Assembly: GCA_030390025.1 (NCBI GenBank)
Contig: JASTWF010000033.1
Span: forward strand, 5,520,001-5,584,000
Direction of reading: 5' to 3'
DNA: 64,000 bases
Origin: Squalus acanthias
Lineage: Eukaryota
The translations under genes were made by a program, and so were the position numbers. Each line of letters starts with the position of its first letter. The first letter of the stretch is position 1. Shown in pieces: positions 1 to 64,000 of this stretch. The notes beneath the pieces are model-generated. The model saw only the letters and a list, made by a program, of their open reading frames with translations, made no database searches and was not told the origin of the DNA.

Positions 1-478
1 AGGAGTTCTGTTATCGAGTCCTCCGACACGCCAAGTTAAACTGGCCTGTCTCCCTTTAACTATAAATAGGCAGAGAAAGGGGAGTCCCTGTCCCTTTAAA
101 TATCTGCCCCATTCCCCCAGGCAGTGGAAGAAGGAACAGCGCGCGGTCTCTTCATATCCTGACCCTATATTGTATTATCTTGTAATCCTATGTAATGTAA
201 GTTACTGAAATAAACAGCTTTCCAATCACTGCACAGTAAAGAAGGGAGCGACTGTTAATGGGAGCTCTGATAGTGAAGTCCGCCGACACTCCAAGATAAA
301 CGGGTCTGTCCCTTTAACTATAAATAGGCAGAGAAAGGGGAGTCCCTGTCCCTTTAAATATCTGGCCCATTCCCCCAGGCAGTGGGAGGAGGAACAGCGC
401 GCGGTCTCTTTATATCCTGACCCAGCGGGCCCCACCGGATGGGCTGCAAAATGTAGGAACCTGCTCTGTGTCGGGATC
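1..478 (-). promoter_or_regulatory. Duplicated module X (partial copy 1-165, fuller copy 226-478); putative promoter/first exon of ZNF lineage c
   Basis: Reverse complement of 24980-25230, 27120-27340 and 52838-53090. Contains a TATA-like GATATAAAG and two TTAAAGGGACA motifs. The copy at 24980 lies upstream of the degraded ZNF exon at about 25986. Confidence 0.4.
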
Positions 479-550
479 ACTTACATTGAGACAACAAATC
501 CAGGGACCACTTACACTGAGACAACAAATCCAGGGACCACTTAAACTGAG
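478..550. repeat. 30-bp minisatellite (CACTTACACTGAGACACCAAATCCAGGGAC), about 2.5 copies
   Basis: Direct tandem units; same unit at 24495-24980, 52735-52838 and 62283-62640. Confidence 0.85.
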
Positions 551-855
551 TATAAATGGGAATCAGAGAGCCTCAGTATGGGGAATGGTCATGATGGTGA
601 AACCAGCTCTCGTGAGGGCGGGTAATGGACGAAGATATGATGTTGGAATCAGATGGTTACTGCTAGGGCCTGGTGACAGGTTATTGTCAGAAGCCCTTTC
701 AGGCAGGCCGATGATTAGATGTAACCAGCACAACACCTGGATCCACCTTTTCCTGTCCAAAGTCTAATGACCCTGATGTCTTTTTCTGTGGCAAATGCAG
801 AGATGTGAAAGAAGAGAGGAAATCAGGCTTGGGCTAGAAAGAAGGTTCCTTGAAT
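551..855 (+). pseudogene. PHF23: PHF23/PHF13-family C-terminal PHD-finger fragment (degraded, intronless)
   Basis: Translation across frameshifts gives MDEDMMLESDG..LVTGYCQKPFSGRPMIRCNQHNTWIHL..SNDPDVFFCGKCRD. This matches the recalled PHF23/PHF13 PHD pattern (VMDEDIMVESGDDSWDLxTCxCxKPFAGRPMIECxxCxTWIHLSCAK); several Zn ligands are lost. Confidence 0.75.
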
Positions 856-1125
856 GAACAATTCATGAGGCTGTTTTCTGACTCATCTGCATAAGCTTAT
901 AACACCATGAAATGAAAGAGAACATGTCCAGTGACACTGGCGTTGTCAATAGTGGTTTCTATCCCTAATCACCGTCTCATAAGCCTAACATCCTAACCCG
1001 AACCCCGAACGCCAACCCCTAAACCCTAAACAAGGATTATTGACAGGCATCAATGGAGGAGCTAAAGACATGATTAAGGAAGTATTAGAAACAATTATCT
1101 CAATTAAAGAAATAGTGCAAGGTAT

Positions 1126-1495
1126 GTTGATAACAAGAGATTAAATCAAAGAGCGCATCAAAATCAGCAATGACAATTACAAAGATCAGAACATTTCAAA
1201 GGCGATCACATGCAATATATGTGGAGGTGTTTTTACCAAATCGGATCCAAAAAGGGTTAACTGATACAGCAACTAACAGATTTCAAATCTTATGCAAGAT
1301 AGTTCTATAAAAGGGTGGTTGAAAGGAACTTCAGATGAGTGTACAGTGAGACACTCCAGTTCAGTCTATTACACTCACAAGCCATGTACTCAAACAGAAC
1401 CAGCCTGGGGTTTGATGCGGTAGAAGGAAAACTAGGTGAGAAGTGATATAAGTCAGAGGAAGAAAAGGACCCAAAAAATGGAACATTCGGTAACA
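1126..1495 (+). mobile_element. Possible solo-LTR-like element or remnant
   Basis: TATAAAAGGG at about 1306 and a ...CGGTAACA end. The end resembles that of the 57300-58399 / 30634-31740 element. Paralogs near 51433-51800 (-) and 63215-63897. The 5' boundary is uncertain. Confidence 0.3.
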
Positions 1496-1699
1496 GAACA
1501 CCAATTAGTCTCCTCTTATCATGGAGAAATCAAATATTCGACTCACTGTGTTTATACAAAGCTGATTTATTCAATATTTATACATAATATCAATCTCCAG
1601 CCCAGGTATAGGGTTATTAAGATCAGCAGAAACACACTAACTGCTGGAATGAACATTGTTCAGTGCTCAATCTAATCGCAGTAAATTCTGTTCTATTCA

Positions 1700-2110
1700 C
1701 GAATGCGGCCTTTCAATAGCGGGGCTTTTACCCAGCATTCCCCGCGGGGGAGAATGTGCCGCACCCGGACTAAAGGAGCCCAGTGCGCAGGCGCGGGATC
1801 GCCTGGTTTGGGCATGCGCAGTTCGTGTCATCTCAGAAGACGTTGCCTGCGGATCAGCTCCTGATCAAACCGTGAGAAGCGGCCAACGGAGCGGAGTAAT
1901 GGACCGGCAGGTGGGCGGGGAGGCTTCATAAACAATTGGTTCAGGCCGCAAACCCCGAATAATAACCTGAAGGTCCCGCGTTTGCAGCTTCGGGGCTTTT
2001 TCCGGTCACAGGCCCAGGATAACGGCCGCCATCTTGATTCAGTGAGTAGCACAGCGCATGCGCAGTCATCTTGGTGAGGAACAAAGAGTGGGCGGGGCTT
2101 CAGTGTCTGT
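1700..2110 (+). promoter_or_regulatory. CpG-rich promoter of ZNF-a copy 1
   Basis: NRF1-type GCGCATGCGC (about 2054), YY1-type GCCGCCATCTT (about 2025), GC boxes GGGCGGGG (about 1913 and 2090); upstream of the ZNF exon. Confidence 0.6.
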
Positions 2111-61545: not shown

Positions 61546-62282
61546 ATGGTCTTTACAAATGTTGTTACTTTAAGTGCAGGATAGAAAGTCAGAACAGACA
61601 ATTCTAGTTCCTATAGAACGTTCTGTCCTCTCCTTCCCCTCCTAAGCTGTAAATTCCCCATTCTACAAACTCTGCCTCCATCCTTACTGTCTAAAATCAA
61701 CATTCATTGCACTGGCTGGGATTTTGTTTCTCCCCTTCTCTCCAGAAGGCGCTGAATCTGGCTGGGTGAAATTCCACATACATTAGTTAACCTCTAGTGC
61801 CTCACCGTCAGCCGACTCAGTGAGTGTCAGCAGCATTTCCCCTGTGGTAGGCATCACAGCCGAGTCCAATCCTGCCCTCAATTGACATCCATACACTTCC
61901 CAGTTGATGTGACTGGATCTCCATCAAGAGCAGGGGCAGGGGCTGATTCTTACTCTTATTTAGCCCAGTGGTGCTGAGGCCAATTCTGGCCCCTGAACTG
62001 TTGCCATGGCTGTGATCAACTAACAGCCCAGATCAAGGACTGCACTTTGGACCTTCCCAGTCAGTAGTGCCGAATGTTTTAAAGCGGGCGTGGTGGTAGG
62101 GCGGGGCCAATGTGGAGGTGGGAAGTGTTGGAAGAGAACATTCTGAAAGAAATGCTACTCCACCTTTAAAGGACCATGATGTGGAGATGCCGGTGTTGGA
62201 CTGGGGTAGACAAATGTGAGAATTCGCGGGATGGATCTTGTTGATGTTATCGTGTAGTCTTTTCAGTGATTCTTCACCATGG

Positions 62283-62640
62283 TTCCAAATCTTAGGACCA
62301 CTTACACTGTCACACCAAATCCAGGGACCACTTACACTGTGACACTAAATCCAGGGACAATTTACAGTGTGACACCAAATCCAGGGACAACTTACACTAT
62401 GACACCAAATGCGGGGACCACTTACATTGTGACACCAAATCCAGGAGTATTTGCACTGTGACACCAATTCCAGGGCCCACTTACAATGCGACACCAAATC
62501 TGGGGAACACTTACTCTGAGACACCAAATCGAGAGACCACTTACACTGTGACACCAAATCCGGGGAACACTTACAGTGTGACACCAAATCCAGGGACCAC
62601 TTACACTACGATACCGAATCCAGGGATCATTTACACTGAG
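62283..62640. repeat. 30-bp minisatellite, about 12 copies
   Basis: Tandem CACTTACACTGTGACACCAAATCCAGGGAC. Confidence 0.9.
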
Positions 62641-62955
62641 TCTATAAATGGGAATCAGAGAGCCTCTGTATGGGGACTGGTCATGGTGGTGAAATCAGCT
62701 CCAGTGAGGGTGAAAGGCGGGTAATGGATGAAGATATGATGTTGGAATCAGATGGTTACTGGTGGGGCCTGGTGACAGGTTATTGTCAGAAGCCCTTTAC
62801 AGGCAGGCCAAAGATTGGATGTAAGCAGCACAACACCTGGATCCGCCTGTTCTTGTCCCCAAGTCTAATGACCCTGATGTCTTTTTCTGTGTCAAATGTA
62901 GAGTTGTGAAAGAAGAGAGGAAATCAGGCTCGGGCCAGAAAGATGATTCCTTGAA
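62641..62955 (+). pseudogene. PHF23: PHF23/PHF13-family PHD fragment, copy 3
   Basis: SSSEGERRVMDEDMMLESDGYWWGLVTGYCQKPFTGRPKIGCKQHNTWI in ORF 62670-62909. Confidence 0.8.
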
Positions 62956-63436
62956 TGAACAATTCATGAGGCTGTTTTCTGACTCATCTGCGTGAGGTTA
63001 TAACACCATGAAATGAAAGAGAACATGTCGAGTGACACTGGCGTTGTCAATAGTGGTTTCTATCCCTAATCACCGTCTCATAAGCCTAACATCCTAACCC
63101 GAACCCCAGCCCCTAACCCCTAATGAAGGATTATTGACAGGGTTCAATGGAGGAGCTAAAGACCTGATGAAGGAAGTATTAGAAAAAATGATCTCAATTA
63201 AGAAATAGTGCAAGTTATGTTAATAACAAGAGATTGAATCAAAGAGACCATCAAAATCAGCAATGACAATTACAAAGATCAGAACATTTCAAAGGCGATC
63301 ACATGCAATATGTGTGAAGGAGTTTTTACTAAATTGGATCCAAAAAGGGTTAAATGATACAGAAAATAACGGATTGCAAATCTTATACAAGATCGTTCTT
63401 TTAAGGGTGGTTCAAAGGAATTTCAGATGAGTGTAC

Positions 63437-63735
63437 TCTTTTTAAGCAACCCATAAACAAATAAACTGTAACTTAACAAAAATACATTAAATTAAACTTA
63501 ATAAATTAAATAAAAATTTGGTTGCCGGGGGTGATGATGCACTTTAGTCCCTGCGGTGCCCACCGGTCGCAGACACCGCGTGCTCCATCTCCAGGGCCAC
63601 CCGGGCGCAAATGTGTCCGAACAACCCCCTCGACCGCCTGCTGCCTGGACCAGTTAATGGCCTTTTTGGCCAGGCCCAGGAGCAGTCCTATGAGGAGGTC
63701 CTCCGATCTGCCCGCTCCCCTCCGCACCGAGTGAG
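63437..63735 (-). mobile_element. Tx1/L1-clade LINE 3' fragment
   Basis: Peptide LLIGLLLGLAKKAINWSRQ..RWAPQG; 14-bp TSD TCAGATGAGTGTAC (63423-63436 and 63736-63749); empty site at 1331. Confidence 0.8.
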
Positions 63736-64000
63736 TCAGATGAGTGTACAGTGAGACACTGCAGTTCAGTCTCTGACACCCACAAGCCATGTACTCAAAC
63801 GGAACAAGCTTGGGGTTTGATGTGGTAGAGGATGAACGAGGTGAGAAGTGATATAAGTTAGAGTAAGAAAGGGCCCAAAAATAGAACAGTCTGTAACAAC
63901 ATCAATTCGTCTCCTCTTATCAACTATTCGACCGACTGTCAGTTTGAAACACAGCTGATGTATTCAATATTTATACAGAACATTAATCTCCAGCCCAGTT

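What the first reader, a model, noticed from the sequence alone, without database searches (positions are those of the whole stretch)
226..64000. A modular ZNF-plus-minisatellite block amplified in direct and inverted orientation
Seen: 226-4078 is an inverted copy of about 45575-53090. 19307-24350 is a direct copy of 34243-49092. 25350-34080 is an inverted copy of 55135-62172. 470-1612 recurs at about 62580-64000. The copied unit has a fixed order: minisatellite B, ZNF-a, minisatellite A, promoter, PHD fragment, 30-bp repeat, module X, ZNF-c, promoter, 63-bp repeat, ZNF-b, 106-bp repeat, 67-bp repeat. Inference: this is a birth-and-death ZNF cluster analogous to tetrapod KRAB-ZNF clusters but with no visible effector domain. 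Minisatellites travel with the genes and lie at or near several breakpoints.
Basis: partly seen in the sequence, partly recalled or inferred. Interest (0 to 1): 0.7.

Follow-up and report, generated by a model that had tools for sequence, protein, structure and literature searches.

The report
Shark zinc-finger block copied in pieces
Four partial, rearranged copies of one DNA block carrying finger-only zinc-finger genes, short tandem repeats and a dead intronless PHF23 copy lie side by side in a shark-like genome, likely the ordinary product of repeated segmental duplication, with the repeats likely riding along rather than driving it.

Summary
The duplications are real. All four block pairs match within about 30 bp of the stated coordinates and cover 73% of the window. 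Copies differ by 2.4-14%, carry their own LINE/SINE insertions, and several module joints recur in other organisms' contigs, so they are not haplotype or assembly duplicates. The 13-module order is collinear but reconstructed: no copy is complete (6, 11, 7 and 8 of 13).

The genes appear finger-only. No Pfam effector was found upstream of five copies, and relatives' RNA-like contigs join a non-coding exon 1 straight to the finger exon. One of eight copies (ZNF-a, 46074-47027, 317 aa, 11 fingers) is open and keeps its promoter. DNA-contact residues differ faster than the scaffold (9/20 vs 15/120). The PHD fragment is a 5'-truncated PHF23 retrocopy; module X remains unidentified. Minisatellites keep homologous flanks, but breakpoints are not enriched in them (6 of 28 ends vs 5.1 expected).

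Verdict: a birth-and-death zinc-finger cluster grown by multi-gene block duplication, like mouse KRAB-ZNF clusters but without KRAB. The scan has noted similar finger-only clusters elsewhere in this genome several times. Interest 0.3.

The parts
199..4092 (-). Copy I of the block (inverted relative to II/III): X, 30-bp repeat, PHF23 retrocopy, 3'-UTR remnant, promoter A, minisatellite A, ZNF-a
   Evidence: 4.4-14% from copy III
551..968 (+). 5'-truncated, intronless, frameshifted PHF23 copy (copy I)
   Evidence: 3' end set approximately, where diverged contigs leave the stretch
1327..1662 (-). ZNF 3'-UTR remnant facing away from promoter A; likely the end of a deleted head-to-head partner gene
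   Evidence: 75% to the ZNF-b 3' UTR in opposite sense; the deletion is inferred
1646..2041 (+). Promoter A and non-coding exon 1 of ZNF-a copy I (GT donor at 2042)
   Evidence: CpG-rich; RNA-like depth peak 1855-2061 and a loose end at 2042 matching the finger-exon start
2278..2656 (.). Minisatellite A (27 bp x14), intronic
3062..4000 (+). ZNF-a copy I: 11 finger units, nonsense codon at 3410-3412 (116 aa)
19303..34108 (+). Copy II of the block (11 of 13 modules; mosaic)
20137..20801 (.). Minisatellite B (27 bp x24.7)
21862..22143 (-). ZNF-a copy II: open 93-aa, 3-finger frame (last finger closest to finger 11 of copy III); exon 1 and promoter core absent
22604..23040 (-). SINE-like insertion present only in copy II at this site, short target duplication
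   Evidence: SINE label recalled
23746..24233 (.). Minisatellite A (x18.1)
24494..24979 (.). 30-bp repeat (x16.3); PHD fragment and promoter core deleted to its left
24985..25342 (.). Module X (unidentified, not PHF23-derived)
25353..28371 (+). Two broken ZNF-c copies (25353-26930 with LINE piece; 27506-28371) around a second X (27120-27451)
28442..28871 (+). Promoter B (about 69% like promoter A)
29107..29406 (.). 63-bp repeat (x4.8)
29630..30435 (+). ZNF-b copy II: dead-finger leader, ATG at 29995, stop after 15 codons
32680..33433 (.). 106-bp repeat (x7.1)
33535..34108 (.). 67-bp repeat (x8.6), outer end of copy II
34238..53316 (+). Copy III, head-to-tail after II (7 of 13 modules)
   Evidence: 2.4-4.0% from II in preB, post and intron modules
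34403..36072 (.). LINE fragments inserted only in copy III, 5-bp target duplication
36789..44283 (.). Minisatellite B expanded to 277.8 units
46074..47027 (-). ZNF-a copy III: open 317-aa frame, 11 canonical C2H2 fingers, 12-residue N-terminus; the only open copy that keeps its promoter
48191..48977 (.). Minisatellite A (x29.1)
49212..49618 (-). Promoter A and exon 1 of ZNF-a copy III (exon ends 49212)
49620..51271 (.). 1.65-kb segment absent from copy I, bounded by an imperfect ~15-bp direct repeat
51272..51600 (+). ZNF 3'-UTR remnant
52310..52733 (-). PHF23 retrocopy (copy III); 3' end approximate
52734..52841 (.). 30-bp repeat (x3.6)
52843..53235 (.). Module X
55131..64000 (-). Copy IV (inverted; 8 of 13 modules; runs off the window)
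   Evidence: 2.4-3.7% from II in most modules, 7-12% in the IIb patch
55131..55858 (.). 67-bp repeat (x10.9)
56025..56357 (.). 106-bp repeat (x3.1)
58599..58853 (-). ZNF-b copy IV: 84-codon frame from ACG, two canonical fingers and one degenerate
   Evidence: use of ACG as a start untested
59420..59559 (.). 63-bp repeat (x2.2)
59560..60086 (-). Promoter B (copy IV)
60086..62173 (-). Broken ZNF-c (copy IV) with LINE piece
62295..62638 (.). 30-bp repeat (x11.5)
62641..63060 (+). PHF23 retrocopy (copy IV); 3' end approximate
63736..63993 (-). ZNF 3'-UTR remnant (copy IV)

Best explanation
The window holds four partial, collinear copies of a multi-gene block of finger-only C2H2 zinc-finger genes, likely made by repeated segmental duplication, inversion and unequal exchange among similar family members, with minisatellites and a dead intronless PHF23 copy likely carried as passengers. 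Shown: the copies, their 2.4-14% mosaic divergence, copy-specific LINE/SINE insertions, finger gain and loss, and seven of eight gene copies broken, promoterless or ACG-started. Inferred: each gene is a CpG-island promoter plus non-coding exon 1 spliced to one finger exon, so the live product (ZNF-a III, 11 fingers) would be a DNA-binding protein with no tethered repressor. Recombination between repeated fingers and paralogues would reshuffle its contact residues while the scaffold is kept by purifying selection. Its likely job, by analogy with KRAB- and FiNZ-ZNFs, is to mark retroelement DNA; this last step is untested (about 40%).
For: Blocks and order. Not haplotypes or artefacts: youngest pairs differ 2.4-4.0%; separate insertions with target duplications; contigs of coded organisms A and B bridge X|30-bp, 30-bp|PHD, PHF-3'|UTR and UTR|promoter joints (records 9, 10, 15, 20, 21, 29-31). 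Gene layout: RNA-like depth peaks at 1855-2061 in 3 of 3 RNA-like runs, and 2 contigs of X18 continue from the donor at 2042 into the first 9 letters of the finger exon; in-frame stop before the first ATG in the spliced copy III; 0 Pfam families in 15 of 15 upstream frames. Selection: I vs III contact residues 9/20 vs 15/120 elsewhere, Fisher P=0.0015; II vs III 0 non-synonymous of 110 non-contact sites vs 5 synonymous of 34, P=0.0006. Passengers: arrays keep homologous flanks and vary up to 11-fold in length; no breakpoint excess under a length-weighted null. PHF23: four stingray isoform models and intron-run-on gene calls all break right after MVES, where the window reads straight through in 3 of 3 copies. 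Precedent: mouse Chr4 KZFP blocks of 3-7 genes with partial duplications and passenger TEs (PMC12575710, passages).
Against: No genome or scaffold was available, so unit counts and order beyond the window are untested. An edge-only null makes 6 of 28 ends at arrays highly significant (P=3e-5), and one break lies about 15 bp outside minisatellite B. Synonymous divergence is also raised at contact codons (0.35 vs 0.14) and in exons against flanks, so gene conversion may mimic positive selection. The splice evidence comes from paralogues in runs only guessed to be RNA (2 contigs, 9 letters). ZNF-a III has lost the family AG acceptor and has a new AG 2 nt downstream, so it may not splice. No binding target or repression was tested.
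Confidence: 0.78

Rival explanations
1. The minisatellites drive the amplification: they act as exchange or fragile sites that set where blocks are copied, inverted and cut, as proposed for beta-satellite in the human 19p12 ZNF cluster.
For: 6 of 16 listed events have an end in or within 15 bp of a tandem array; copies II and IV both end in the 67-bp array; edge-only null P=3e-5. Arrays are very unstable (24.7 vs 277.8 units).
Against: Arrays make up 12-44% of each copy, and the length-weighted expectation is 5.1 against 6 observed (P=0.41); 10 of 16 events lie more than 15 bp from any array. Several other joints show short microhomology, and finger loss in II follows the finger repeat itself.
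Confidence: 0.1
2. The block, or its PHF23-bearing part, is a mobile unit (Pack-type DNA transposon or similar) that spreads as one piece.
For: Modules look highly multi-copy in a relative's DNA contigs (summed depth about 9,000-138,000 against 14-24 for long single contigs; not a copy number). A weak BED-finger trace lies at 1034-1333 (E=0.036, below cut-off). Earlier notes report hAT elements carrying retrocopies in this genome (unchecked).
Against: No terminal inverted repeats around the PHF23 module in 3 of 3 copies (longest arms 11-23 nt, 74-92%, at non-matching places). Copies have different ends and are mosaics. Module depths differ several-fold.
Confidence: 0.06
3. The cluster is mostly neutral, duplication-prone debris; the finger proteins have no selected role and apparent selection reflects gene conversion among paralogues.
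For: 7 of 8 gene copies are broken, promoterless or lack an ATG. Synonymous divergence in exons (14-15%) exceeds flank divergence (3-5%). ZNF-a III has an altered acceptor.
Against: Non-contact sites show a strong deficit of non-synonymous change in both pairs. An 11-finger frame has stayed open. Family exon 1 and finger exons are well covered in RNA-like runs. This rival concerns function, not how the block was copied.
Confidence: 0.25
4. The copies are haplotype or assembly duplicates.
For: The region is repeat-rich and holds a 7.5-kb minisatellite whose length could be mis-assembled.
Against: Minimum divergence 2.4%, up to 14%; copy-specific insertions with target duplications; module joints recur in contigs of other coded organisms.
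Confidence: 0.02

Closest known systems
Young mouse KRAB-ZNF clusters expanded by multi-gene segmental duplication (PMC12575710; search listing and 12 passages)
   Same: Blocks of several finger genes copied together, partial copies, passenger repeats duplicated with the block, inversion, proposed non-allelic recombination.
   Different: No KRAB exon here; passengers are LINEs, SINEs, minisatellites and a PHF23 retrocopy rather than ERVs; no binding data.
Birth-and-death C2H2-ZNF clusters of mammals (Tadepally 2008, PMC2443715; passages)
   Same: Block (multigene) duplication, finger-number change, pseudogenes.
   Different: In humans, effector-less ZNFs occur more often as singletons; here effector-less genes form the cluster.
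Beta-satellite blocks in the 19p12 Kruppel ZNF cluster (Eichler 1998; not read, seen only as cited in PMC3018141)
   Same: Tandem-repeat blocks interspersed with, and co-amplified with, ZNF genes.
   Different: Six unrelated minisatellites rather than one satellite family; no excess of breakpoints at arrays shown here.
Cyprinid FiNZ-ZNFs (Wells 2023, PMC10547256; abstract, section 4, passages, Supplemental Data 1 rows)
   Same: Lineage-specific tandem finger family in a non-tetrapod; two-exon layout; rapid change at contact residues.
   Different: FiNZ has a 28-aa coding exon; exon 1 here appears non-coding. The paper's main text does not mention sharks, but its table lists 703-3586 ZNF ORFs in the 6 shark assemblies I looked up and 475 in a chimaera.
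PHF23 (PHD finger protein 23) processed pseudogene
   Same: SSSEGE-DEDIMVES-PHD sequence (60% to stingray PHF23 over 48 aa; PHD E=5e-7 to PHF23 and 5e-9 to PHF13 structures), last intron absent.
   Different: 5'-truncated, frameshifted, and multiplied as a passenger of the ZNF block; no poly(A) tail or target duplication seen.

Membership tests
KRAB-ZNF | N-terminal KRAB domain on an upstream coding exon | tested here: not met
   0 Pfam families in 15 of 15 frames upstream of 5 of the 8 gene copies; none on ZNF-a III besides fingers; in-frame stop before the ATG in spliced III
KRAB-ZNF | Tandem C2H2 fingers with TGE(K/R)P-type linkers in one exon | tested here: met
   11 fingers, PF00096 E=6e-70, PF13465 E=7e-84
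KRAB-ZNF | Binds retroelements and recruits TRIM28 | not testable with these tools
   No binding or interaction data
FiNZ-ZNF | 28-aa acidic N-terminal coding exon, cyprinid host | tested here: not met
   Exon 1 spliced in silico gives no ATG-led frame into the fingers of ZNF-a III; host is elasmobranch-like; no FiNZ model was scanned
Birth-and-death multigene cluster | Duplicated paralogues of mixed age with live and dead copies | tested here: met
   2.4-14% divergence; 1 of 8 open with promoter
Birth-and-death multigene cluster | Lineage-specific gain and loss across species | tested here: inconclusive
   Relatives hold the modules, but contigs are too short to count or order genes
Segmental duplication (at least 1 kb, at least 90% identity; definition recalled) | Length and identity, including introns, flanks and repeats | tested here: met
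   e.g. 30444-32672 vs 58590-56365 97.4% over 2.2 kb
Processed pseudogene of PHF23 | Loss of a parental intron | tested here: met
   Junction after MVES inferred from 4 stingray isoforms and intron-run-on gene calls; window continuous in 3 of 3 copies
Processed pseudogene of PHF23 | Poly(A) tail and target-site duplication | tested here: inconclusive
   None seen by eye; the 5' end abuts the 30-bp repeat
Pack-type DNA transposon | Terminal inverted repeats and target-site duplication around the cargo | tested here: not met
   No matching terminal arms in 3 regions around the PHF23 module; the block's outer ends lie partly outside the window
Satellite-ZNF co-amplified cluster (19p12 type) | Tandem arrays at homologous places in gene copies | tested here: met
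Satellite-ZNF co-amplified cluster (19p12 type) | Arrays mark the duplication breakpoints | tested here: inconclusive
   6 of 28 ends vs 5.1 expected (length-weighted) or 0.6 (edge-only)

The most novel reading that the evidence does not exclude
Sharks run a KRAB-free retroelement surveillance system made of finger-only proteins. New specificities are minted by copying multi-gene blocks and then swapping finger arrays and promoter cores between paralogues: in both independent pairs here the promoter core is about 10-11% diverged at non-CpG sites, against about 2% in the II/III and II/IV flanks.
Probability: 0.2. Interest if true: 0.7.

Novelty: new variant of a known kind. Interest (0 to 1): 0.3.

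Why it matters
Sharks lack KRAB-ZNFs (PMC8455134 and PMC11603059, passages), yet they carry hundreds to thousands of tandem ZNF ORFs. How finger-only proteins could act is open, and ZNF-a III is a concrete 11-finger candidate to test. The block itself is ordinary segmental duplication. Its use is as a dated series of copies showing finger reshuffling, minisatellite turnover and the spread of a dead retrocopy as a passenger.

Tried and rejected
No whole genome was held, so units could not be counted genome-wide.

My early idea that X + 30-bp repeat + PHD form one decayed PHF23 gene (one stop-free 199-codon frame) was rejected. A 27-protein profile found only the PHD side, and 0 of 12 X frames beat shuffles against stingray PHF23. 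A word-based search with that frame for longer proteins found nothing. Pfam found nothing for X (3 frames) or in 24 of 24 frames of four other unique modules.

Rfam and ARAGORN gave 0 matches. No terminal inverted repeats were found around the PHF23 module.

GC-biased conversion at promoters was not seen: polarised S>W 24, W>S 20. The 'core vs flanks' Fisher line used hand-entered approximate counts and is not used.

No RNA holder is on record; the runs used are guesses. The first read-laying showed no exon-1 joint because exon 1 lay outside the stretch. The stretches laid held no long array, so array lengths and the II/III and III/IV joints were not checked against reads.

The ZNF homologue search returned generic finger proteins. 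The leader search gave 1 hit among 5 candidates, a sawshark histone-fusion gene model.

Literature: searches listed no paper on shark ZNF cluster structure; two searches returned 0 papers; one search gave nothing used; PMC4467064 (passages) did not locate the PHF23 intron. Promoter motif names (YY1, NRF1, ZNF143) and the SINE/CR1/L2 labels are recalled, not tested.

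
Full report
Observation. Self-BLAST with tandem arrays masked and a module map recover all four stated duplications within about 30 bp. They define four partial copies of one block: I 199-4092 (inverted), II 19303-34108, III 34238-53316 (head-to-tail after II) and IV 55131-64000 (inverted). Together they cover 46,649 bases, 73% of the window. Sampled block pairs share 194-1336 20-mers against 0 after a shuffle. 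The stretch 4093-19302 is a nest of reverse-transcriptase elements (RVT_1 E=5e-32) with a Harbinger element.

Not an artefact. Unique modules differ by 2.4-4.0% in the closest pairs and by up to 14% elsewhere. Copy III alone has LINE pieces at 34403-36072 with a 5-bp target duplication, and II and III each have a SINE-like insertion at a different site. Contigs from other coded organisms bridge the X|30-bp, 30-bp|PHD, PHF-3'|UTR and UTR|promoter joints. Divergence changes abruptly inside copies: II is 2-4% from IV over most of its length but 7-13% in the 26932-28871 patch. The copies are therefore mosaics of paralogues of different age. Summed contig depth in one DNA run is about 9,000-138,000 over non-tandem modules of copy I, against 14-24 for several long contigs. 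The tool warns this is no copy number; I take it only as multi-copy and unequal between modules (X 79,000-138,000, PHD side 12,000-29,000).

Host. The finger-exon leader has one database hit, in a sawshark gene model, and the PHF23 piece matches stingray PHF23 upstream of the PHD. The genome is thus elasmobranch-like. Wells et al. list 703-3586 ZNF ORFs in the six shark assemblies I looked up and 475 in a chimaera (PMC10547256 Supplemental Data 1); their main text has no mention of sharks.

Genes. There are eight gene copies of three types. ZNF-a III (46074-47027, minus) is an open 317-aa frame with 11 canonical fingers and a 12-residue N-terminus. ZNF-a I has a nonsense codon at position 117. 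ZNF-a II is an open 3-finger frame whose last finger is closest to finger 11 of III (7 of 84 nt differ), but its exon 1 and promoter core are deleted. ZNF-b II stops after 15 codons; ZNF-b IV has an 84-codon frame starting at ACG. All three ZNF-c copies are broken. Promoters A and B are homologous (about 69%) and CpG-rich. RNA-like contigs pile on 1855-2061 in 3 of 3 runs, and two X18 contigs continue from the GT donor at 2042 into the first letters of the finger exon. Splicing III in silico puts an in-frame stop before the first ATG, and Pfam finds nothing in 15 of 15 frames upstream of five copies. The layout is therefore likely non-coding exon 1 plus one finger exon. Caveats: the runs are only guessed to be RNA, the contigs are from paralogues, and copy III has AG>AC at the family acceptor with a new AG 2 nt downstream.

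Selection. Over five matched fingers, I and III differ at 9 of 20 contact residues and 15 of 120 others (Fisher P=0.0015). Over two fingers, II and III differ at 2 of 8 and 0 of 48, with 5 synonymous changes in 34 sites against 0 non-synonymous in 110 (P=0.0006). Synonymous divergence is also higher at contact codons (0.35 vs 0.14) and exceeds flank divergence, so conversion from other paralogues may contribute. The remaining fingers could not be matched one to one and were left out.

PHD fragment and module X. The fragment matches PHF13 and PHF23 PHD structures; the upstream SSSEGE stretch and best hits name PHF23. Four stingray isoform models diverge right after MVES, and unnamed gene calls run into or out of an intron at the same point. 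The window reads through that point in 3 of 3 copies, so it is a 5'-truncated processed copy, now frameshifted. Module X shares a stop-free frame with it in copy III but does not align to PHF23 (0 of 12 frames above shuffles; profile negative) and stays unidentified. Between the retrocopy and promoter A lies a ZNF 3'-UTR remnant in opposite sense, likely the end of a deleted head-to-head partner.

Minisatellites. All six arrays have homologous flanks on at least one side between copies and vary freely in unit number (B 24.7/277.8; A 14/18.1/29.1; 30-bp 2.6/16.3/3.6/11.5), so they were copied with the genes and then changed length. I hand-listed 16 rearrangements with 28 ends, leaving out element insertions and finger-number changes. 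Six ends lie in or within 15 bp of an array (one of them a local 152-bp repeat). The arrays' share of sequence predicts 5.1 (P=0.41, giant array shrunk) or 8.5 (unshrunk). An edge-only null predicts 0.6 (P=3e-5), but a break inside an array always appears as an edge; only one break (II, beside minisatellite B) lies just outside an array. A driving role is therefore not shown, and not excluded.

Mechanism and comparison. The best reading is repeated segmental duplication and inversion by exchange among similar family members, followed by deletions (several with short microhomology), finger reshuffling, insertions and array turnover. This works like young mouse KRAB-ZNF clusters, where blocks of 3-7 genes and passenger TEs were duplicated with partial copies (PMC12575710, passages), and like the block duplication in the birth-and-death model (PMC2443715, passages). 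Tandem repeats interspersed with ZNF genes are known from 19p12 (Eichler 1998, seen only as cited in PMC3018141). It is not a KRAB- or FiNZ-ZNF cluster: the effector test fails. In humans effector-less ZNFs tend to be singletons, so a clustered finger-only family is a variant. A role against retroelements is an analogy and untested.

Earlier scan notes (unchecked AI notes) describe similar finger-only clusters elsewhere in this genome, two about 3.7 Mb before this window, so this finding repeats a theme. Paper searches listed no study of shark ZNF cluster structure; two supplements of PMC10547256 were too large to read. Verdict: observation confirmed, interpretation partly supported, new variant of a known kind, interest 0.3.

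Noticed in passing
window 12310-16504: PIF/Harbinger element inside a LINE: 12-bp near-perfect terminal inverted repeats, TTT flanks, DDE_Tnp_4 (E=7e-14) and Myb/SANT (E=8e-7) frames facing each other; a shorter relative lies at about 17893-18809.
   Followed up: partly
window 1646-1950 vs 49300-49618; 28590-28871 vs 59662-59940: Promoter cores are 11.0% and 9.8% diverged at non-CpG sites, against 1.8-2.2% in II/III and II/IV flanks (I/III flanks 4-7%). No GC bias; may be promoter swapping among paralogues or a hypervariable spacer.
   Followed up: partly
window 49620-51271: 1.65-kb segment absent from copy I, bounded by an imperfect ~15-bp direct repeat, with AATAAA near its end and a CpG-rich short-repeat tract; no Pfam hit in its first 900 bases. 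A 145-bp piece of it sits inverted in copy II (24349-24493).
   Followed up: partly
window 47120-47122: ZNF-a III has AG>AC at the family splice acceptor and a new AG 2 nt downstream; nearly all relatives' contigs keep the canonical base.
   Followed up: partly
window 1034-1333: Decayed frame with a weak BED-finger match (E=0.036, below cut-off) next to the PHF23 copy.
   Followed up: partly
window 960-1030; 63060-63125: Degenerate CCCTAA-like hexamers just after the 3' end of the PHF23 copy, where a poly(A) tail might be expected.
   Followed up: no
window 36789-44283: The 278-unit minisatellite B shows a recurring block of variant units three times in its first 60%, then becomes nearly uniform, suggesting stepwise expansion.
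   Followed up: no
P0121: The only database hit of the ZNF leader is a sawshark gene model fusing histone H2A to this leader, hinting that histone and ZNF clusters are interleaved there.
   Followed up: no
window 53314-55130: 1.8-kb spacer between copies III and IV with a local 152-bp repeat at the breakpoint, LINE pieces and single-copy sequence.
   Followed up: no
window 15601-15762: Three identical 54-bp tandem units inside the Harbinger Myb gene region.
   Followed up: no
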